Counted from the stretch's first letter, positions 61 through 7,430 are shown. The stretch: 10,479 nucleotides of DNA from Candidatus Iainarchaeum sp. (GCA_903916665.1 CAIWXP010000093.1:1-10479), one strand, 5' to 3'. Numbers and translations: made by a program. Notes: a model not told the origin generated them from the sequence alone.

Positions 61-2421
61 ATGGAATCAGAAAATGAAAATACAAATGATTCTGATGAAC
101 ATGAAGAAAAATATGATGATAAAATAAATATAGAATTAACTTTTTTTGAAAATCCGGAAACTGGTCATGCATTGGTTGGAAGAAAACCAAGCGTATTCAA
201 AAAATATGGTGAAGACGCATCATTATATTTAGGAAAAGTTTTTGAACCTAATTATCCAGAAAAAGAAATATACTTTGATTCTTTAGATCCACAGGTAATA
301 TTTGTATGTGGTTCAAGAGGTTCTGGAAAATCCTATATTTTAGGTGTTATTGCAGAAGAGCTTGCGCTAAAAAATAAAAATGTTGGACAAATAGTAATAG
401 ATCCGGTTGGTGTTTTTTGGTCAATGAAATATCCTAACAAAGAGGATAGGGAAATTCAAGAATTACAAAAATATGGTTTGGAACCAAAGGGCTTAGAAAA
501 TGTAATTGTTTTTGTACCTGAAAGTGCAGCAAATAAATTACCCAAGGAAACCTATGATGCCACTTTTACAATTCAGCCTGCATTTCTAACCTCAGAAGAT
601 TGGGCATTAACATTTGGTATTGATAGATTTGCGCCTTCTGGATTATTGTTAGAAAAAGTAATTAAAAATGTTCGTGATGGTTATCGTGCCATAAATGGTT
701 TAATTTTTAGACCCAAAGCAGATAATTACGATATGAATGATATTATTTATTGTTTGGAAAATGATGTTGAATTAAACTCAAAAGAAAGAGGCTATAGAAA
801 GGAATCTATCAGGGCTTTGGTTTCAAGATTTGAAGCTGCAAAAACCTGGGGTATATTTTCAAAAAAAGGAACACCATTAATTGAATTATCTGTTCCCGGC
901 CAATTAACTGTTATTGATACTAGTTTTTTAGATGAAAATGTTTCTGCTTTGCTTGTTGGAATATTAGCAAGAAGAATTTTGAATGCAAGAAAATTAAGTT
1001 CAAGAAAAGAAGCATCTAAAAAAATTAATACTGATTTACCAAACATAGATTTGGAAAATGATATTCCTCCTACTTGGTTATTTTTAGATGAAGCACACAC
1101 TCTAATTCCTTCGGGAAGTTTGGCAACACCCGCATCAAAATCAATTGTAGAATATGTTAAACAAGGAAGAAAGCCAGGTTGTTCATTGGTTGTAGCAACA
1201 CAGCAACCTTCTGCCATAGATACAAGAGTTTTATCTCAGGTAGGAACATTAATAACCTATAAATTAGTTTTTGATGATGATATTAAAGCAGTTTTCAAAA
1301 GATTACCAACAATAGTTCCAAAAAGATTTAGAGAAACTAGTTTTATAAAACGATTAAGCGTTGGTGTTCCATTGTTTGCAGATAAAGTAGAAACAACTTC
1401 AAGAGCTTTTGTTATGACTGTTAGACCAAGAATGAGTCAACATGAAGGAAGAGAAATACAAACTGCTGAAACTCAAGCACAATTAACCGATGATGAAATT
1501 TTAAGAACAATGGTTAGCATTACACAAAATAAAATTAGACAATTTGAAGAATTAGATGTTAGTTCATTGAGAACGCTTTTAAAAATATTAAATATGAAAT
1601 ATAAAACGGATATTGATTTTGATACTCTATCTCAAAAATTAATTGACAGCGAAGTTATTTTAGAAAAAGATAGATATTTTATAACTAAAGAAGCAGAATC
1701 TGAACACTATGAAGAAAAAGTATCCTATCATATTATTGAACCACAATATAATGAAGAAGAAATTTTAGGTTTTGTAAAAAGAAGTACGGGTTGGAGTAAT
1801 TTTACAAATAAAACCGTTTACAGACCAATCTTTAAAGTTAATTATAAAATATTTAACGAAGATGGAAGTTACGTTGACAATGCCTGCTATGTTGATAGTG
1901 TTAAGGTTGAATTTTTACATTTTTTAGATAAAGAATTTGCCTATTCTTCTGGTCTAAGTATTTTAAGAACTTTAGATGCTGATGATATTAGAATATTAAT
2001 TGAATTACCAAAAAAACAAGGATTTGATATGGATTTCTTGAAAGATAATTTTGCTTTTGGTGATGTTAAATTAAAAAATACAATGGATAGATTAGGAACT
2101 TTGGGATTATTAAGAAGAGAAAGAAGAGGAACAAAAAATATTTTCTTTTTAATTAAAAATTTAGAAGTACCAATGAATCCATTGCACAAAGTATTAAGTA
2201 CTTTAGATGATTTGCCAGTTGTTTCTGATCAAATAAAAAAAGAAGATATATTAGAAGCAAGAGCTACTTTTGAAACAGTGAGAAATATTTTAGGAACTCT
2301 ATGGAGCTCAATTAAAATTGATGATATTGAAACGCTTTTAAAACAAGAAGTTTTAGTAACTAATTTAGATACAAAAGATACACAAATTTTTGATTCCTAT
2401 ACAGGAAAGAAAATAAATTAG
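61..2421 (+). CDS. FtsK/HerA-superfamily P-loop ATPase (HerA/DUF87-like) with acidic N-terminal tail and long C-terminal extension containing a winged-helix-like segment
   Basis: 786 aa ORF. Walker A GSRGSGKS is at nt 310-333, Walker B LFLDEAH at nt 1078-1098, and the FtsK/HerA-type ATQQPS motif at nt 1195-1212, followed by VLSQ. The C-terminal third has a MarR-like wing signature, DRLGTLGLLRRERRGTKNIFFLI (about nt 2085-2155). The reading frame stays open from nt 1 to the ATG at 61, so the true N-terminus may lie upstream of the window. Confidence 0.85.
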   Translation: MESENENTNDSDEHEEKYDDKINIELTFFENPETGHALVGRKPSVFKKYGEDASLYLGKVFEPNYPEKEIYFDSLDPQVIFVCGSRGSGKSYILGVIAEELALKNKNVGQIVIDPVGVFWSMKYPNKEDREIQELQKYGLEPKGLENVIVFVPESAANKLPKETYDATFTIQPAFLTSEDWALTFGIDRFAPSGLLLEKVIKNVRDGYRAINGLIFRPKADNYDMNDIIYCLENDVELNSKERGYRKESIRALVSRFEAAKTWGIFSKKGTPLIELSVPGQLTVIDTSFLDENVSALLVGILARRILNARKLSSRKEASKKINTDLPNIDLENDIPPTWLFLDEAHTLIPSGSLATPASKSIVEYVKQGRKPGCSLVVATQQPSAIDTRVLSQVGTLITYKLVFDDDIKAVFKRLPTIVPKRFRETSFIKRLSVGVPLFADKVETTSRAFVMTVRPRMSQHEGREIQTAETQAQLTDDEILRTMVSITQNKIRQFEELDVSSLRTLLKILNMKYKTDIDFDTLSQKLIDSEVILEKDRYFITKEAESEHYEEKVSYHIIEPQYNEEEILGFVKRSTGWSNFTNKTVYRPIFKVNYKIFNEDGSYVDNACYVDSVKVEFLHFLDKEFAYSSGLSILRTLDADDIRILIELPKKQGFDMDFLKDNFAFGDVKLKNTMDRLGTLGLLRRERRGTKNIFFLIKNLEVPMNPLHKVLSTLDDLPVVSDQIKKEDILEARATFETVRNILGTLWSSIKIDDIETLLKQEVLVTNLDTKDTQIFDSYTGKKIN

Positions 2422-2429
2422 GTGATTTG

Positions 2430-3011
2430 ATGGGCATAAAATTATTGCAAGTTAATGAAAATGTTTTATCTTTAATAAATAAAAAGATAGGATCATATTT
2501 TTTAGGAATTATACTTTTTATAGTTGGAATTATATTCGAAATTTACTATTTTTCAGACAAGGATATATATGTTTTGATAATTGGAATTGTATTGATGATT
2601 ATTGGTGTATTGGTATTTCTGTTTACAAAAAGGGAATATTATACATTTGACAAAACACAAAATAAATTATTAATTAGTTTAAAATCGATAGTAAGTAATA
2701 CAACAGATTCAAGAGATTTAAAGAAAATAAAAGAAATTGAATATACTACTTCTACAAAAATATCTACTTCACAAAAGGGATTATCAGTAAATACAACCTA
2801 TTTTATGGTTATAAAATTTGAGGACTCACAGGATATATTTATTTCATTAAATTCTAAAAATCAAAATAGTGTAACTAGCCTTTTAGGTAATTCTAGCTAT
2901 AGATTAACTTGCCAAAAAACTGCTGAATTCTTAAAGGTTCAATTTAAAGAAATAAGTCCGGAGTCCGTAATTAAAGACGCATTTAATTTGGGAAAAAGTA
3001 ACAATATATAA
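2430..3011 (+). CDS. Small membrane protein: two N-terminal TM helices plus a soluble domain of about 125 aa, function unknown
   Basis: Hydrophobic helices YFLGIILFIVGIIFEIYYF and IYVLIIGIVLMIIGVLVFLF lie at about nt 2490-2624. GGTGA at 2421-2425 overlaps the upstream TAG stop and sits 4 nt before the ATG at 2430. The ORF track begins at TTG 2427, which is only 1 nt from the SD, so ATG 2430 is preferred. No recognisable catalytic motif. Confidence 0.7.
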   Translation: MGIKLLQVNENVLSLINKKIGSYFLGIILFIVGIIFEIYYFSDKDIYVLIIGIVLMIIGVLVFLFTKREYYTFDKTQNKLLISLKSIVSNTTDSRDLKKIKEIEYTTSTKISTSQKGLSVNTTYFMVIKFEDSQDIFISLNSKNQNSVTSLLGNSSYRLTCQKTAEFLKVQFKEISPESVIKDAFNLGKSNNI

Positions 3012-3064: not shown

Positions 3065-4300
3065 TTAAAGATTTTCGGATTTTAAATCAATATTTTTAAC
3101 ATAAACATTTTTTGCAAATATTGCTTTACTTGATAAAAACATTTTATAGATTAATGCAAAGAATGCAATGATAAATATTGCAATAATTATCCAGATTGTT
3201 GATCCTTCTCCAAAACTAAACAAACCTGTGAATGAAGTTCCTAAACTAAAATTTGATTTGTTTACATCTAGATTTTGATCTTCTGCAGTTTGTAAATCAA
3301 TTTCTTTATACAATTGACCTGCAAAATAAACATTTAGATCTTTTTCTTCTTTTTCTGCTTGTAAAAAGTATGTTTGACTAGGTTGTAATAGCAATGAAAA
3401 TTCTCTTTTATTTGTATTAACATCTAAAGAAACATACTCTGTTCCAACATTTGTTATTGCTAATTCTTTTGTATTCTTTGTGTAAGCAACTAAAATATCT
3501 TGGTTTTTTAAAGTTAGGTTTAATTGACCTAAATCTATTTGTTCACCAGATAATGTTTCAATGGCATAGAAATAAATTGGAGTATAATTTATATTATAAT
3601 CTTCATCCATTTTTATTGTTAATATAATATTTCTTTCTTCATCTTTTGATAAAGAAAAATAATTTTCATTAAATGTTAAATTTAATTTGTTTTTATCTGG
3701 AGAATCAACAATTGCACCAATTTTAAATGTTGAACTAGATCCAACATTTTTAAAACTAAATAAAACTGTTTGTTCTTTATTTGCATCAATTAAAATATTT
3801 CTTGTTGAAATATTTTGTAAAACTAATTTTGGTGCTTCATTGGTATAATCTGAAGTTTTATATACTAATTTTTCTTTTGCAATTACTTTTACATTAATTA
3901 TAGTTTCTCTAGTTTCTGTCATTCCATTATAATTTACAGCTGTAATTAATTTAACCGGATAATCGCCGGGTAACTCATTACCTACTTTAATATACAATGG
4001 CAAATCAAAATTTGAAAAATTACTAGTTTTAGGAGTTATATATGCGTATAATGGAGAATCTACTTTTTGATAGAAAGTTAATTCACTATCAGAATTTAAA
4101 CCATAATATATTCTTAATTGATAATCCGTACCCTGTTGTAAAGTTAATGTATTACTCTCAGGGTAAATATCATAGTTTAACTTGTATTGTGCACCAGCAT
4201 TAGCAAAGGCCAAAGCCAATAGTACAAAAGTTACTAACATTAAACCCTTTAATAAAGATTTTGTATCATAATCAAAAACCATAGGATCAGCTCCAATCAT
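3065..4300 (-). CDS. Surface-exposed beta-sandwich (CARDB/NEW3-like) protein with N-terminal signal sequence and C-terminal TM anchor
   Basis: 411 aa. The N-terminal hydrophobic segment LMLVTFVLLALAFANA precedes an A-x-A-type cleavage site. The C-terminal helix TIWIIIAIFIIAFFALIYKMFL is at nt 3134-3199. The middle part has alternating beta-strand patterns typical of CARDB-like modules, for example EQTVLFSFKNVGSSSTFKIGAIV...ERNIILTIKM. This is a fold-level call only. Confidence 0.7.
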   Translation of the reverse strand: MIGADPMVFDYDTKSLLKGLMLVTFVLLALAFANAGAQYKLNYDIYPESNTLTLQQGTDYQLRIYYGLNSDSELTFYQKVDSPLYAYITPKTSNFSNFDLPLYIKVGNELPGDYPVKLITAVNYNGMTETRETIINVKVIAKEKLVYKTSDYTNEAPKLVLQNISTRNILIDANKEQTVLFSFKNVGSSSTFKIGAIVDSPDKNKLNLTFNENYFSLSKDEERNIILTIKMDEDYNINYTPIYFYAIETLSGEQIDLGQLNLTLKNQDILVAYTKNTKELAITNVGTEYVSLDVNTNKREFSLLLQPSQTYFLQAEKEEKDLNVYFAGQLYKEIDLQTAEDQNLDVNKSNFSLGTSFTGLFSFGEGSTIWIIIAIFIIAFFALIYKMFLSSKAIFAKNVYVKNIDLKSENL

Positions 4301-4322: not shown

Positions 4323-4385
4323 CTTTATAAAGTTATTTATTGTTTAACTCATCCAATTAATCTAGTTTATAAATGGCTTTAAATA
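4323..4385. promoter_or_regulatory. Divergent promoter region with two TATA-like boxes, each about 26-27 nt upstream of its start codon (leaderless pattern)
   Basis: The palindromic CTTTATAAAG (4323-4332) is centred about 27 nt from the minus-strand ATG at 4300. TTTAAATA (4378-4385) is centred about 26 nt from the plus-strand ATG at 4407. Neither gene has an SD. TATA-like strings are common in AT-rich DNA, so confidence is modest. Confidence 0.4.
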
Positions 4386-4406: not shown

Positions 4407-5180
4407 ATGGACCAAAAAAAGATTTTATTATTTTGCTTTGCATTTTTACTAATTTTGAGCCCTATTTTTGCCAAAGCTGAAATAAACATAGATATTTTAG
4501 AAAATACCCCTTACATAGACTACACCTTGCCATTTACTTCCAGTTTTAGCATCGATTTACCAGATTTTGGTAATTTAATCTATCTTAAAGTATTGCCCAG
4601 TGATATTAATTATATATTTAATAATGGCAAATTAACAATTAATTCTGCCACTCCTGGAACATTGGTATTAAAATATGAAGGCACGGATTTTTTAGATAAT
4701 CATTCATTCTATGATAAAACTTTAGATTTTAACATATTTCAAGAAACAACAATAAATATTCAATGTGATAAGAACATTTCAAAAATAAATACTTTAGAAA
4801 TAAATAATACTAATTATTCAATAAAAACCAGTGAACCAACTACTTTACACATATTAATAGAAAAGGATCCATTCAGGTGGCAAAATATTCTAATTATATC
4901 ACTTTGTTTAGCGTTTGTAATTATAATTATGGTTCCAATACTATTGAAAAAATTTCCAAAAGAAAAAAAGAAAAAACTATATTTAGATGCAACACAACAA
5001 AAAGTATATGATACGGTTAAAAAACAAAAAGAAATGACACAACAATCTATTGCAAACCAATTAAACCTAAACAAAAGTCATTTAAGCAAGATATTAAACA
5101 AAATGGAAAGAAATGATCTAATTGAAAGAAAGAAAGTAGGAAAAGTAAATAAAATTATTTTAACAGACAATAAAAAATAA
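4407..5180 (+). CDS. Type-I membrane-tethered transcription regulator: signal peptide, ectodomain, single TM helix, C-terminal cytoplasmic winged helix-turn-helix (MarR/ArsR-like)
   Basis: 257 aa. Signal peptide MDQKKILLFCFAFLLILSPIFAKA is at nt 4407-4478. The ectodomain is about 130 aa. The TM helix WQNILIISLCLAFVIIIMVPILL is at nt 4878-4946, followed by a positive-inside KKFPKEKKKK stretch. The wHTH pattern is at nt 4983-5165: QQKVYDTVKKQKEMTQQSIANQLNLNKSHLSKILNKMERNDLIERKKVGKVNKIILT (helix-turn-helix plus a basic wing). Confidence 0.75.
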   Translation: MDQKKILLFCFAFLLILSPIFAKAEINIDILENTPYIDYTLPFTSSFSIDLPDFGNLIYLKVLPSDINYIFNNGKLTINSATPGTLVLKYEGTDFLDNHSFYDKTLDFNIFQETTINIQCDKNISKINTLEINNTNYSIKTSEPTTLHILIEKDPFRWQNILIISLCLAFVIIIMVPILLKKFPKEKKKKLYLDATQQKVYDTVKKQKEMTQQSIANQLNLNKSHLSKILNKMERNDLIERKKVGKVNKIILTDNKK

Positions 5181-5341
5181 TATAAATTCATTTTCAAATA
5201 TCTTGCCCGGGGTATAACGCATAGCAACCAAAATTATTTCTTTTAAGCCAACTGTTTTCTTTTATAATTGCCAAAAACGTTTCTTTGTAGAAAGAAAAGG
5301 TATTAACGCTTTGGGTAGCCTGTAGCCTTTCTAAAAGGCTC

Positions 5342-5384
5342 AGTTTCCTATAGTTTCCAATCAGTTATATATATGGTTTCCAAT
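5342..5384 (+). promoter_or_regulatory. Three direct copies of a (A/G)GTTTCC(A/T)AT decamer bracketing a TATA-like element: putative operator/promoter of the coiled-coil protein gene
   Basis: AGTTTCCTAT (5342-5351) and AGTTTCCAAT (5352-5361) are exactly tandem with a 10 bp period. GGTTTCCAAT is at 5375-5384. TTATATATAT (5365-5374) lies between copies 2 and 3. The start codon is at 5428, preceded by GGAGGTGA. Confidence 0.45.
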
Positions 5385-5427
5385 ATAACCCTATTACATT
5401 TTAATTAAATTCACTGGAGGTGAATAA

Positions 5428-6570
5428 ATGATAACTAAACTATTAGCAGTTTTAGGCGTATTATTCCTAGCAACAGTAGTATTAGCTAGTGCAGTACATG
5501 CAGATACAAATACAGATAGTAATTCGGGAGCCGGAAATACGCAATTAATTTCAGCAAATGATGGCCCACAAACAGGATCAAATATGGATGGTAATCAAAC
5601 AGATTATCAAACAAAAATAAAAGATCAAATAGAAGAGAAAAAGAAAGAATTACAAGATAAATTAGATAAAGGAAAAGCTAATTTTCAAGATAAAATAGAT
5701 CAGATGAAAGATAAATTAGATAAATTTAAACAACAGGCTAAAGACAGATTAGATAAACTAAAGGAAACACAGGATAATTGGAAACAAGAAAAGGGAAAAT
5801 TTCCTGGTTTAAATATGATGTTAAATAGCCCAGAAGGAAAAATGGCAACAATGCAATATATTCAAGTATTAGGAGATCAAATTGCAGAACATTTTAAAAG
5901 TTTAGCAGATAAAAATGGTCCCTTAGCAAGCTATTGGTTAACAAAACCAGATGAAATAAATTCTATTGTTGCAAATTTAGATTCAAATTCAACAAAAGAA
6001 GATATTTTAAATGCAATACAAGAATTAAAAAAGACTTGGCAAAACAATGAGCCTCAAAGAAAAGCAGCCATTGGAGTAAACTATGTTGATGGTGTAACAA
6101 GAGTTGTTCCAAAGATGGAAAACATATTAAATAGTCTAGATAAAAAATTAGATACTCTTGAAGCAGCAGGTATTGATGATAACACTGCAAGAACACAATA
6201 TTATTTAGCCATTGAAAGTATTGCTAATTTAAAACTAGATTTAACTAATACACAAGAACAATTGAAAACAAAAATCTCAGATACAAATATTGATGTTAAT
6301 TCAATAAATAGTTTATTGAAAACATTAAATGTGGAAGTAAAAGATACTAGAAAAACAATTGTTGATGCAGTTAATGAATTTAATAAATTAAAAAGAGATT
6401 TTGCAAAAGATAAACAAGCAGAAAAAGATCAAAATAGGGTATTTGATGGTAATAGACCAAGAAAACATCCACAAATAAGAGACACAAATAAAGCAGATGA
6501 TCAAAATGGTACGGACCTAAATACAGAAGATGATAATCAAAACACAGCAGATGTAAATCAAGGACAATAG
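5428..6570 (+). CDS. Secreted coiled-coil protein with K/D/Q-rich periodic repeats and acidic/N/Q-rich disordered C-terminal tail
   Basis: 380 aa. Signal peptide MITKLLAVLGVLFLATVVLASAVHA is at nt 5428-5502. A full SD, GGAGGTGA, lies at 5416-5423. A repeated (Q/K)D(K/R)(L/I)D(K/Q) motif recurs with 11-7-11 residue spacing. There is no second TM segment. Confidence 0.75.
   Translation: MITKLLAVLGVLFLATVVLASAVHADTNTDSNSGAGNTQLISANDGPQTGSNMDGNQTDYQTKIKDQIEEKKKELQDKLDKGKANFQDKIDQMKDKLDKFKQQAKDRLDKLKETQDNWKQEKGKFPGLNMMLNSPEGKMATMQYIQVLGDQIAEHFKSLADKNGPLASYWLTKPDEINSIVANLDSNSTKEDILNAIQELKKTWQNNEPQRKAAIGVNYVDGVTRVVPKMENILNSLDKKLDTLEAAGIDDNTARTQYYLAIESIANLKLDLTNTQEQLKTKISDTNIDVNSINSLLKTLNVEVKDTRKTIVDAVNEFNKLKRDFAKDKQAEKDQNRVFDGNRPRKHPQIRDTNKADDQNGTDLNTEDDNQNTADVNQGQ
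5656..5757 (+). repeat. In-frame periodic DNA/protein repeat inside the coiled-coil protein gene
   Basis: GATAAATTAGATAAA occurs exactly at 5656-5670 and 5710-5724. Diverged copies are GATAAAATAGATCAG (5689-5703) and GACAGATTAGATAAA (5743-5757). Spacings are 33, 21 and 33 nt, which is 11, 7 and 11 residues. Confidence 0.7.
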
Positions 6571-6579
6571 GGTGATTAA

Positions 6580-6891
6580 ATGAAATATTTAATTGCAATA
6601 TTATTTATTGGTTTAATTGGATTGGTTGTATTATCTGGTTGTGTAGCTAGCAATCAGAAAGATACAAACACAGGTCCAGAAAATGATCAGTTAACAAAAA
6701 TATCCACCGATTTAAATCAAAACTCAACATTAAACAATACGGATAATCAAATATCCAATGATTTAAACGAACTAAATGTAGATGATAATTCTGCAAACGC
6801 AGATGCATTAGATATAAATAGTTTGGATACTGATCTATCACAAATAGATTCTTTGTTACAAGACCCAGATCCATTTACAACTTTAAATTAA
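6580..6891 (+). CDS. Small putative lipoprotein with N/D/Q/T-rich low-complexity mature region
   Basis: 103 aa. The signal peptide ends in the lipobox LSGC (Cys21 codon at 6640-6642). GGTGATT at 6571-6577 sits 4 nt upstream of the ATG and directly after the TAG stop of the preceding gene. A hairpin plus T-run terminator follows. Confidence 0.6.
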   Translation: MKYLIAILFIGLIGLVVLSGCVASNQKDTNTGPENDQLTKISTDLNQNSTLNNTDNQISNDLNELNVDDNSANADALDINSLDTDLSQIDSLLQDPDPFTTLN

Positions 6892-6941: not shown

Positions 6942-7430
6942 TTATATTGGCCCGTATTGCCTGCCCAAATCAAATTTGTTTTTTGATAAAACTAAAAGCC
7001 ATCTAATATATTTATGATTTATTTGTTTATCATGCCATCTTTTATCAAAATCATCAAATTTTATTTTAAAACATTTGCCATTCCAAGGATCATTCATAAT
7101 TAAATTATCTTTATCATAGCCAATTATTACTGAATAATGGCCATCATTTGAACTAGGTTCTTTGTAGTGAACTATAACGGGTAAACTTAAATCAATAAAA
7201 TGTTTAATATTGTGAATATTTGCGTTTTCATGAACAAAACAATAAAATCCACTTCGTCTAGAAACATCAATCATATATTTATGAATTGTTCCATATAATG
7301 GCTGGGTTTTTGCTAATTTAGATATGTCCTGTTCTTTTATATTTTTTTTAAAAAATGCAAAAACCATTTCTAAACTAGCTGGCCCGCAAGTATATCCTGT
7401 TTTTTGATGATAGTATGGAACTTTTAACAT
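6942..7430 (-). CDS. Stand-alone C39-like (Peptidase_C39_2-type, papain-fold) cysteine peptidase, cytoplasmic
   Basis: 162 aa. The N-terminus VPYYHQKTGYTCGPASLEMV carries an oxyanion Gln and catalytic Cys15. DGHYSVIIGY supplies His98 and IMNDPW supplies Asp114. An in-frame TAG two codons upstream of the ATG (minus strand, 7434-7436) rules out a longer N-terminus or signal peptide. Confidence 0.85.
   Translation of the reverse strand: MLKVPYYHQKTGYTCGPASLEMVFAFFKKNIKEQDISKLAKTQPLYGTIHKYMIDVSRRSGFYCFVHENANIHNIKHFIDLSLPVIVHYKEPSSNDGHYSVIIGYDKDNLIMNDPWNGKCFKIKFDDFDKRWHDKQINHKYIRWLLVLSKNKFDLGRQYGPI

What the first reader, a model, noticed from the sequence alone, without database searches (positions are those of the whole stretch)
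4407..5180. Signal-peptide / ectodomain / TM / C-terminal wHTH: a type-I membrane-tethered one-component regulator
Seen in sequence: a cleavable-looking signal peptide (4407-4478), an ectodomain of about 130 aa, one TM helix (4878-4946) followed by a KKFPKEKKKK positive-inside stretch, and then a complete winged-helix DNA-binding module (4983-5165) as the last 65 residues. Established knowledge: the classical membrane-bound regulators (ToxR/CadC type) have the opposite order, with an N-terminal cytoplasmic DNA-binding domain and a C-terminal periplasmic sensor. Inference: this protein would sense something outside the cell and bind DNA while anchored in the membrane, or after regulated proteolytic release. 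A cytoplasmic cysteine peptidase is encoded 1.8 kb downstream. It is divergently paired with a surface beta-sandwich protein and sits directly upstream of a promoter carrying a triple repeat (5342-5384), which is an obvious candidate target.
Basis: partly seen in the sequence, partly recalled or inferred. Interest (0 to 1): 0.65.

Follow-up and report, generated by a model that had tools for sequence, protein, structure and literature searches.

The report
Membrane-tethered archaeal regulator with conserved operator
This gene encodes a membrane protein with an outside sensor-like domain and an inside DNA-binding domain, part of a widespread but unstudied archaeal family that always sits next to the same three-fold DNA repeat and the same pair of secreted-protein genes, giving a directly testable regulator–target pair.

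Summary
ORF 4407..5180 encodes a 257-aa protein with a signal-peptide-like N-terminus, a confidently modelled all-beta ectodomain, one TM helix, a Lys-rich linker and a minimal C-terminal winged helix (Pfam DUF7343 and MarR above cut-off; 0.8–1.4 Å to CzrA and MexR). Positive-inside statistics place the wHTH in the cytoplasm in 92 of 98 family members.

The architecture is not unique. The profile search found 889 representative clusters, and most of the best hits have the same layout. It belongs to the known class of transmembrane transcription regulators, but with the reverse domain order to ToxR, CadC and ArnR.

The GTTTCC triple repeat bracketing a TATA box recurs with the same geometry downstream of the regulator gene, in close relatives and in two remote ones. 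It always precedes a signal-peptide helical protein and a small lipobox protein. The recognition helix and wing are 93–94% conserved.

The C39 peptidase and the divergent 411-aa gene are not part of the conserved module.

Best model: a membrane-anchored regulator, probably a repressor, of the adjacent two-gene envelope operon. DNA binding itself is untested. I rate it a new variant of a known kind, interest about 0.55.

The parts
4407..5180 (+). Gene for the 257-aa membrane-tethered wHTH protein (whole ORF including stop)
4407..4472 (+). Signal-peptide-like N-terminus (res 1-22: KK n-region, hydrophobic core, conserved small residue at 22; alternative AKA|E site ends at 4478)
   Evidence: cleavage not testable here
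4479..4877 (+). All-beta ectodomain (res 25-157), invariant PYIDYT and LPDF motifs, net acidic, four N-X-S/T sequons, no Pfam family
4878..4946 (+). Single transmembrane helix (res 158-180)
4947..4988 (+). Short Lys-rich cytoplasmic tether KKFPKEKKKKLYLD (res 181-194), low pLDDT
4989..5165 (+). Minimal winged helix (res 195-253); recognition helix 5073-5111 (KSHLSKILNKMER), wing 5121-5162 (IERKKVGKVNKIIL)
5342..5351 (+). Operator copy 1, AGTTTCCTAT
5352..5361 (+). Operator copy 2, AGTTTCCAAT, abutting the BRE position
5365..5374 (+). TATA box TTATATATAT of the downstream operon, bracketed by the repeats
   Evidence: conserved position; archaeal promoter role inferred
5375..5384 (+). Operator copy 3, GGTTTCCAAT, between the TATA box and the predicted transcription start
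5428..6570 (+). Conserved downstream gene 1: signal peptide plus all-alpha extracytoplasmic protein (380 aa); SD GGAGGTG at 5416-5422
6580..6891 (+). Conserved downstream gene 2: small acidic protein with lipobox-like LSGC (103 aa), 9 nt after gene 1
4324..4385 (.). Conserved divergent promoter region: TTTATAAA (4324-4331), block TTATTGTTTAACTCA (4337-4351), TATA candidates 4366-4374 and 4376-4385 for the regulator gene (probably leaderless)

Best explanation
ORF 4407..5180 encodes a single-pass membrane protein. After export of its N-terminal half, an acidic beta-sandwich domain faces outside and a 65-residue winged helix sits on a 14-residue Lys-rich tether at the cytoplasmic face. It belongs to an archaea-wide, uncharacterised family (C-terminal wHTH = Pfam DUF7343) that works as a transmembrane one-component transcription regulator. 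While still membrane-anchored, its wHTH binds the three direct GTTTCC repeats (5342-5384). Two are tandem at 10-bp spacing just upstream of the BRE/TATA, and one lies between the TATA box and the transcription start. These repeats bracket the TATA box of the adjacent operon, which encodes a secreted helical protein (380 aa) and a small lipoprotein-like protein (103 aa). The site positions overlap where TFB and RNA polymerase must bind, so the most likely action is repression, relieved or tightened when the ectodomain changes the protein's oligomeric state. The operator lies immediately 3' of the regulator's own gene in all lineages. This would let a diffusion-limited membrane protein find its site, possibly through coupled transcription, translation and membrane insertion.

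Shown: architecture, fold, topology signals, family conservation, operator conservation and three-gene linkage. Inferred: that this wHTH is what binds GTTTCC, the sign of regulation, the signal, and the transertion rationale.
For: Domain content and fold. Topology: 8 K/R against 2 D/E after the TM; in 98 family proteins, mean K+R is 4.98 after the TM against 1.77 before, with more after in 92 of 98; the ectodomain is net negative and the tail net positive. Repeats: RGTTTCCWAT 3 hits against 0.15 expected. GTTTCC start offsets of 0, +10 and +33 occur at the same place in the window, L001/L002/L015, L006/L007, L008/L014, L009 and L011; L004 and L012 have two-copy variants. The same triple around a TATA-like box occurs in the remote loci L016 (offsets 0, +9, +32; 39% GC) and L139 (0, +9, +33; 42% GC), with a degenerate version in L017. 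The composite pattern hits once per locus and only at that site, in 10 of the first 17 family loci. Flanking intergenic sequence is not conserved. The recognition helix is 93% and the wing 94% identical across relatives, against 50% for the ectodomain and 27% for the TM, and the signature K[SA]x[LM][ST]K...GK[VI]NK is kept in remote operator-bearing members. Negative control: L138 has a different helix and wing, no repeats and no downstream pair. The trio of regulator, signal-peptide helical protein and lipobox protein is conserved in close and remote loci. TTRs are an established class in archaea, and their target-search constraint and transertion are discussed in the literature (PMC10269533; PMC11856585).
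Against: No binding data exist, and another factor could bind GTTTCC. The wHTH has no flanking dimerisation helices, and direct rather than inverted repeats are unusual for MarR/ArsR-like domains. The sign of regulation rests on site position alone. The downstream proteins in remote loci resemble the window's only in features plus marginal sequence similarity (E 1e-3 to 1e-5 in a tiny database). Two relatives lack the pair or the repeats (L142; L010, a fusion or deletion). The GRRNK subfamily has a different layout. Signal-peptide cleavage and topology were not run through dedicated predictors.
Confidence: 0.58

Rival explanations
1. Same protein and same operator, but it acts as an activator. 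The two tandem upstream copies recruit or stabilise TBP/TFB at the weakly BRE-like promoter, and the membrane-bound form turns the operon on.
For: Copies 1 and 2 lie upstream of the BRE/TATA, where archaeal activators bind (established knowledge). The characterised membrane-bound regulators ToxR, TcpP, CadC and ArnR are activators (PMC10269533; PMC6396743).
Against: Copy 3 sits between the TATA box and the predicted start, which is a classic repressor position, and it is the best-conserved copy (kept in the two-copy loci L004 and L012).
Confidence: 0.22
2. Regulated proteolysis. The wHTH is released from the membrane, for example by the nearby cytoplasmic C39-type cysteine peptidase (6942..7430) or by an intramembrane protease, and acts as a soluble factor.
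For: A C39 peptidase without a signal peptide is encoded 1.8 kb downstream. A second, 28%-identical C39 gene lies immediately divergent from the family member in L142. The linker is disordered.
Against: C39 is absent from the other family loci examined. No site-2 protease or rhomboid is in the conserved module. The linker has no Gly-Gly motif. A released 65-residue monomeric wHTH would lose the avidity that membrane or ectodomain oligomerisation provides. Strict adjacency of operator and regulator gene is better explained by a non-diffusible regulator.
Confidence: 0.1
3. Not a transcription regulator. The protein is a structural subunit of an envelope complex formed with the two downstream extracytoplasmic proteins. 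Its wHTH tethers DNA to the membrane non-specifically or binds a protein partner, and GTTTCC is read by another factor.
For: The three genes are linked over deep divergence, as in complexes. wHTH domains can mediate protein contacts (established knowledge). The close relatives are syntenic with a HerA/FtsK-like ATPase.
Against: The recognition helix and the basic wing are the most conserved parts. The best structural matches are DNA-bound repressors. The HerA-like gene is lost from the neighbourhood in remote relatives, while the operator stays.
Confidence: 0.12
4. Reversed or different topology. The N-terminal segment is not exported, or the wHTH lies outside, so the protein cannot reach DNA.
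For: No dedicated topology or signal-peptide predictor could be run.
Against: The positive-inside bias is strong and family-wide (92 of 98). The n-region carries K/R in 85 of 98. The ectodomain is acidic and the tail basic.
Confidence: 0.03

Closest known systems
Transmembrane transcription regulators (TTRs) as surveyed by Demey et al. 2023 (PMC10269533)
   Same: [quoted passage not shown] Single-pass like 56% of TTRs. Like ~57% of them, it has no recognisable domain apart from the DNA-binding one. The class is common in archaea (1,384 in 367 of 404 species).
   Different: That survey is a census. This family, its ectodomain, its operator and its linked genes are not described there as far as I could read.
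ToxR/TcpP/CadC-type bitopic regulators (with ToxS/TcpH-type partners)
   Same: A single TM; an extracytoplasmic domain coupled directly to a winged-helix DNA binder; direct-repeat operators near the promoter; extracytoplasmic partner proteins encoded next to the regulator.
   Different: Reverse order: here an N-terminal exported domain with a signal peptide and a C-terminal wHTH. The wHTH is a MarR/ArsR-like minimal domain (DUF7343), not OmpR/PhoB Trans_reg_C. The system is archaeal, with a TATA/BRE promoter. The neighbours have their own operator-controlled promoter.
ArnR/ArnR1 of Sulfolobus acidocaldarius (the studied archaeal membrane-bound regulators)
   Same: Archaeal, membrane-anchored, one-component; bind cis boxes in the promoter of a surface-structure gene (PMC6396743).
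   Different: ArnR has an N-terminal HTH, cytoplasmic HAMP and sensor domains, and two C-terminal TM helices with no ectodomain. The present family has an exported sensor-like domain and one TM.
MarR/ArsR-family cytoplasmic repressors (MexR, ZitR, CzrA)
   Same: The wHTH core superposes at 0.8-1.4 A and scores above the Pfam MarR cut-off.
   Different: No N- or C-terminal dimerisation helices and no ligand pocket; membrane-tethered; apparent direct-repeat rather than palindromic operator.
TfoS/ChiS of Vibrio cholerae (TTRs whose DNA-binding part follows the membrane/periplasmic part)
   Same: A membrane-embedded regulator that must meet its promoter at the membrane; the target-search constraint is discussed (PMC11856585). 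That their DNA-binding domains are C-terminal is my own recollection and was not checked here.
   Different: Bacterial, multi-domain (kinase-like or AraC-type), two TM helices, unrelated DNA-binding domains.

Membership tests
Transmembrane transcription regulator (functional class, PMC10269533) | At least one predicted transmembrane region | tested here: met
   KD peak 3.25 at res 161-179; AF2 helix 158-181
Transmembrane transcription regulator (functional class, PMC10269533) | A predicted DNA-binding domain in the same polypeptide | tested here: met
   DUF7343, MarR, HTH_24 and HTH_Crp_2 above cut-offs; wHTH fold
Transmembrane transcription regulator (functional class, PMC10269533) | DNA-binding domain on the cytoplasmic side | tested here: met
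   Positive-inside statistics, 92 of 98 family members; indirect, with no dedicated predictor or experiment
Transmembrane transcription regulator (functional class, PMC10269533) | Binds DNA and regulates transcription while in the membrane | not testable with these tools
   Only comparative support: conserved adjacent operator
Pfam PF24034 DUF7343 | Score at or above the gathering threshold (27.6 bits) | tested here: met
   35.1 bits, res 209-252, profile positions 18-61 of 62; also in all relatives
ToxR/CadC family | N-terminal cytoplasmic OmpR/PhoB-type winged helix (Trans_reg_C) | tested here: not met
   No Trans_reg_C hit; the wHTH is C-terminal and MarR-like
ToxR/CadC family | C-terminal periplasmic sensor domain after a single TM | tested here: not met
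   The exported domain is N-terminal, res 25-157
MarR family (canonical) | wHTH matching the MarR profile | tested here: met
   PF01047 33.6 bits against a 24.6 cut-off
MarR family (canonical) | Dimerisation helices flanking the wHTH (about 140-aa soluble homodimer) | tested here: not met
   Only three helices plus a wing after the TM helix; 65 residues
ArnR-type archaeal membrane regulators | N-terminal HTH, HAMP/sensor domains, two C-terminal TM helices | tested here: not met
   Architecture differs; ArnR layout taken from PMC6396743
Regulated-intramembrane-proteolysis substrates | A conserved dedicated protease partner or a cleavage motif | tested here: inconclusive
   C39 present near only 2 family loci; no S2P or rhomboid in the conserved module; cleavage itself not testable

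The most novel reading that the evidence does not exclude
The three genes form an ancient, archaea-wide, self-contained envelope feedback module. The exported beta-sandwich domain of the regulator senses the amount or assembly state of the very proteins it controls (the secreted helical protein and the small lipoprotein). The regulator acts essentially in cis: it is inserted into the membrane next to its own gene and captures the GTTTCC operator a few dozen base pairs downstream. Gene order itself is then part of the mechanism. This would be a prokaryotic type-I receptor wired directly to a promoter, with a defined operator that can be tested across phyla.
Probability: 0.25. Interest if true: 0.72.

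Novelty: new variant of a known kind. Interest (0 to 1): 0.55.

Why it matters
Very few archaeal transcription factors have a known operator, and the only membrane-bound ones I found described with experiments (ArnR/ArnR1) have no outside domain. This work provides several things:

- A broad archaeal family found in MAGs labelled DPANN/Diapherotrites, Methanobacteriota and Hydrothermarchaeales, plus unnamed MAGs.
- A predicted 10-bp recognition unit with a fixed three-site geometry around a TATA box.
- A defined two-gene target.
- A minimal 65-residue DNA-binding module suited to EMSA, structural work and in vitro transcription.

It would be a clean system for asking how a membrane-tethered factor finds and controls an archaeal promoter, and what signal genome-reduced DPANN cells read from outside. 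It also gives a functional hypothesis for Pfam DUF7343 and for proteins now labelled 'uncharacterized membrane protein'.

Tried and rejected
- **Rfam and tRNA scans of the window:** nothing found.
- **Bacterial sigma-70 promoter and terminator scan:** no enrichment, and not relevant to an archaeon.
- **Scan of viral contigs for the composite GTTTCC pattern:** more than 120 scattered chance hits, uninformative.
- **PDB by sequence:** only weak MarR, Lrs14 and TFE hits for the regulator, and none for the 380-aa protein.
- **Structure and fold search of the 380-aa protein:** an all-alpha bundle with no match at E <= 1e-3, so no function assigned.
- **Ectodomain fold search:** only loose matches to the N-terminal beta domain of M1 aminopeptidases and to LppM (TM-score about 0.3, rmsd 7-8 A), treated as fold-level resemblance only.
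- **Literature searches for 'DUF7343' and 'COG2512':** no relevant paper. The archaeal 'dark matter' paper does not describe this module.
- **HerA-like ATPase and divergent 411-aa gene as parts of the system:** rejected as core parts because remote relatives lack them.
- **C39 peptidase as the release protease:** downgraded after a tblastn of all family loci.
- **Structured RNA in the 5181-5341 spacer:** one conserved hairpin, no covariation.
- **Palindromes after copy 3:** recurrent, but short and expected in AT-rich DNA.

Full report
**1. What is in the sequence**

The window is about 27% G+C. ORF 4407..5180 on the + strand encodes 257 residues.

Hydropathy gives two hydrophobic segments, residues 4-24 and 158-180. 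The first is preceded by Lys4-Lys5 and followed by IFA|KAE. In 18 homologues the residue aligned with Ala22 is always small (A/S/G/C/T), which fits a signal peptidase I site.

The second segment is followed by KKFPKEKKKK: 8 K/R against 2 D/E in 20 residues. Residues 25-157 are net acidic (9 K/R, 18 D/E) and carry four N-X-S/T sequons.

Pfam finds nothing in residues 1-190. At residues ~191-254 it finds a winged helix: DUF7343 35.1 bits (cut-off 27.6), MarR 33.6 (24.6), and HTH_Crp_2 and HTH_24 above cut-off. NCBIfam gives only sub-threshold Sta1, ArsR and Lrs14-type hits.

An AlphaFold2 model built on the 18-sequence alignment has mean pLDDT 86.8. It shows an all-beta domain (eleven strands, residues 24-152), a TM helix 158-181, a low-confidence linker, and a canonical H1-H2-H3-wing module (H195-207, H212-219, H223-235, hairpin 239-252) with no further helices.

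Foldseek superposes that module on MexR (1.4 Å over 68 columns) and CzrA (0.8 Å over 61). The ectodomain gives only loose beta-sandwich matches to the M1 aminopeptidase N-domain and LppM, with TM-score about 0.3 and rmsd 7-8 Å.

**2. Topology**

No dedicated predictor was available, so I used the positive-inside rule across the family. I took the 98 retrieved proteins that have an N-terminal hydrophobic segment, one TM helix and a 55-115-residue tail.

- Mean K+R in the 15 residues after the TM is 4.98, against 1.77 before it.
- 92 of the 98 have more K+R after than before, 5 are equal and 1 has fewer.
- The exported part is net negative (-0.052 per residue) and the tail net positive (+0.137 per residue).
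- 85 of the 98 have K/R in the N-terminal n-region.

Whether or not the N-terminal segment is cleaved, the beta domain is outside and the wHTH inside.

**3. The family and how common the architecture is**

The word-indexed search found 18 full-length relatives at 40-70% identity, all with the same layout.

The exhaustive profile search against 1.84 billion cluster representatives found 889 proteins at E <= 1e-3 and 28 at E <= 1e-10. Among the 147 best hits outside the core family:

- 74 have an N-terminal hydrophobic segment, one TM and a short C-terminal tail.
- 18 have one TM plus the tail.
- 35 are fragments of fewer than 200 aa.

Ten sampled remote members all carry DUF7343 at the extreme C-terminus and no other domain.

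Source names are 'uncharacterized membrane protein', 'MarR family transcriptional regulator [archaeon]', 'ArsR family regulator' or 'hypothetical protein'. Genome records place members in Candidatus Diapherotrites (DPANN), Methanobacteriota and Hydrothermarchaeales MAGs.

No solved structure is related beyond the generic wHTH.

The architecture is therefore widespread, catalogued only as a DUF, and uncharacterised as far as my searches show. No paper contains 'DUF7343'.

**4. What is conserved around it**

In close relatives (L001-L009, regulator 40-48% identical) the order is:

1. Four or five small minus-strand genes.
2. A DUF87/HerA-like ATPase.
3. A divergent ~400-aa gene.
4. The regulator.
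5. A 293-320-aa gene.
6. An 86-101-aa gene.
7. Then GDPD or Sua5, and DnaJ-DnaK-GrpE.

The ATPase is 71-74% identical and the divergent protein 36-48% identical to the window's.

In remote relatives the ATPase and the divergent gene are gone. Their places are taken by PCNA, RadA, chorismate mutase or GatE. A trio persists on one strand:

| Locus | Regulator (aa) | Next gene (aa) | Small gene (aa) |
|---|---|---|---|
| P0021 contig | 267 | 310 | 98 |
| L016 | 295 | 385 | 108 |
| L017 | 299 | 400 | 79 |
| L139 | 315 | 371 | 104 |

In all of them the middle protein has a signal peptide and is helical. The small one has a signal peptide ending in a lipobox-like L(S/A)GC and an acidic tail. Sequence similarity between remote and close versions is only marginal, so I call them equivalent by features and position. 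Homology is not proven.

The window's 380-aa protein models as an all-alpha bundle (core pLDDT about 85) with no significant fold match.

The C39 peptidase (6942..7430; Pfam C39_2 64.8 bits, no signal peptide) has a homologue in only one other family locus, L142. There it is immediately divergent from the regulator gene. It is not part of the conserved module.

**5. The operator**

RGTTTCCWAT occurs three times in the window, at 5342, 5352 and 5375, against 0.15 expected. None of 200 shuffles reached three. Plain GTTTCC occurs four times on the + strand against 0.86 expected, three of them here.

The copies bracket TTATATATAT (5365-5374). GGAGGTG (5416-5422) and the ATG at 5428 follow.

In every family locus that reaches far enough, GTTTCC copies occur downstream of the regulator gene with start offsets 0, +10 and +33. 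These are the window, L001/L002/L015, L006/L007, L008/L014, L009 and L011. L004 and L012 keep copies 2 and 3, and L012's copy 1 reads GTTGCC.

The consensus is TAGTTTCCTAnAGTTTCCAAtnAnTTATATATATrGTTTCCAAT. Sequence on either side is not conserved, although the proteins are only about 45% identical.

In L001 a 221-aa gene and a doubtful 74-aa ORF are called between the regulator and the operator, and the operator has stayed with the downstream gene.

The same arrangement is also found in remote, higher-GC loci:

- L016: AGTTTCCATGGTTTCCAGAAGCATAGATATATGGTTTCCAC (offsets 0, +9, +32).
- L139: AGTTTCCACAGTTTCCACAACAACTAGTTATATGGTTTCCGC (offsets 0, +9, +33).
- L017: one good copy and one degenerate copy.

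By my own estimate, a given ~85-nt spacer in a ~40% GC genome would hold three copies by chance with probability about 1e-6. This was not computed with a tool. The composite pattern matches once per locus and only at this site, in 10 of the first 17 family loci.

The recognition helix and wing are correspondingly conserved, at 93% and 94% identity, against 50% for the ectodomain and 27% for the TM. The signature K[SA]x[LM][ST]K[IV]x...GK[VI]NK holds in the remote operator-bearing members.

L138 is related only through its TM and wHTH and has a different helix and wing (KTTLARIL...GKAKR). It has neither the repeats nor the downstream pair.

A subfamily with SKAK[IV]SKI...GRRNK has two tandem paralogous regulator genes. 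Its spacer is different, with TGAAC-N6-TGAAC plus a single GTTTC(C/A)AGAAA element. This fits co-variation of protein and site, but the sample is too small to count as proof.

**6. Mechanism**

Taking the TATA centre at about -26, I predict the transcription start near 5395. This rests on established archaeal promoter geometry.

- Copy 3 then covers about -21 to -12.
- Copy 2 covers about -44 to -35, overlapping the BRE.
- Copy 1 covers about -54 to -45.

Proteins bound between the TATA box and the start, or over the BRE, normally block TFB or RNAP recruitment in archaea. I therefore favour repression; activation through the upstream pair is the main alternative.

The 10-bp spacing of copies 1 and 2 puts them on one DNA face. 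This suits a row of parallel membrane-anchored monomers whose association would be set by the TM or ectodomain.

The tether is only 14 residues, so the DNA must come to the membrane. The operator lies 14 to ~160 bp after the regulator's stop codon in most loci. This would minimise the search problem discussed for bacterial TTRs (PMC11856585), possibly through coupled transcription, translation and insertion. That step is inference.

The signal is unknown. Both regulated products are extracytoplasmic, and characterised TTRs such as ToxR/ToxS and TcpP/TcpH use neighbouring extracytoplasmic partners (PMC10269533). A feedback loop on envelope proteins is therefore attractive but untested.

**7. 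Comparison with known systems and novelty**

The protein meets the operational definition of a transmembrane transcription regulator, a class shown to be common in archaea (PMC10269533).

- **ToxR/CadC family:** it is not a member. The wHTH is of a different type and the domain order is reversed.
- **Canonical MarR protein:** it is not one. The dimerisation helices are missing.
- **ArnR:** it is unlike ArnR, which has an N-terminal HTH, a cytoplasmic sensor and two C-terminal TM helices (PMC6396743).

New here, within the limits of an incomplete literature library, is the definition of a deep archaeal family with a conserved three-site operator and a conserved two-gene target. I classify it as a new variant of a known kind.

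**8. Verdict**

The central interpretation is supported by comparative evidence, and the peptidase and divergent-gene links are not. My confidence is about 0.9 in the architecture and topology. It is about 0.58 that this wHTH controls the adjacent operon through the GTTTCC repeats. Interest is 0.55: a solid, directly testable regulator-operator pair in a poorly understood area, but not a new principle.

Noticed in passing
L010 5980-7047 (protein P0017): One relative's regulator ORF runs straight into the C-terminal domain of Sua5 (PF03481), and the operator and both downstream genes are missing. This is either a real deletion fusing the two genes or an assembly or gene-call artefact.
   Followed up: partly
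window 61-2421; L001 2755-6654: The DUF87/HerA-like ATPase is 71-74% identical between genomes whose neighbouring genes are only 36-48% identical. In L001 it carries an intein with a LAGLIDADG domain (1299 aa). In relatives it is preceded by four or five small minus-strand genes with no Pfam hit. By eye, its C-terminal third looks wHTH-like (LGLLRRERRGTKNIFFL).
   Followed up: partly
window 4337-4351: TTATTGTTTAACTCA, between the two divergent TATA boxes, is conserved as TTATTGTTT(A/C)ACTCA in all close relatives. It shares GTTTC with the operator in about half of them and could be an autoregulatory or second-factor site.
   Followed up: partly
window 5324-5340: A perfect hairpin or palindrome, AGCCTTT-CTA-AAAGGCT, abuts operator copy 1. 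It is conserved in L011 and L012 but without covariation. The 160-nt spacer also has other blocks shared with L012.
   Followed up: partly
window 5400-5425; L001 9825-9838; L009 6760-6778; L011 1583-1600; L012 1829-1846: A short palindrome with a GAAT...ATTC theme recurs between operator copy 3 and the Shine-Dalgarno sequence in most lineages but not in L004. It could be a 5'-UTR hairpin or a second operator, or chance in AT-rich DNA.
   Followed up: partly
window 6942-7430 (-); L142 161-700 (-): A stand-alone C39-type cysteine peptidase without a signal peptide or ABC transporter lies near the regulator gene in two of the family loci, in different arrangements. The two are 28% identical.
   Followed up: yes
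L140 3042-4951; L141 3060-4933: In a Methanobacteriota-type subfamily the regulator gene is tandemly duplicated, with the paralogues 2 nt apart. The downstream protein has a faint CW_binding_2-like N-domain plus helical xGxYGxAF repeats. The spacer has ATGAACTTTTTTGAACC instead of the GTTTCC triple.
   Followed up: partly
L001 8836-9501: A 221-aa gene is inserted between the regulator and the operator in one lineage. By eye it has a minimal nucleotidyltransferase-like motif (GSTAN...DVDAILIF), which may indicate a mobile toxin-antitoxin-type insertion.
   Followed up: no
window 2427-3011: A 194-aa protein with two N-terminal TM helices lies between the HerA-like gene and the 411-aa gene. It has no counterpart at that position in L004 or L006.
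   Followed up: no
window 3065-4300 (-): The divergent 411-aa protein has a signal-anchor-like N-terminus and a C-terminal TM helix with a conserved IYKxFL...F(G/A)K tail, but no Pfam hit.
   Followed up: partly
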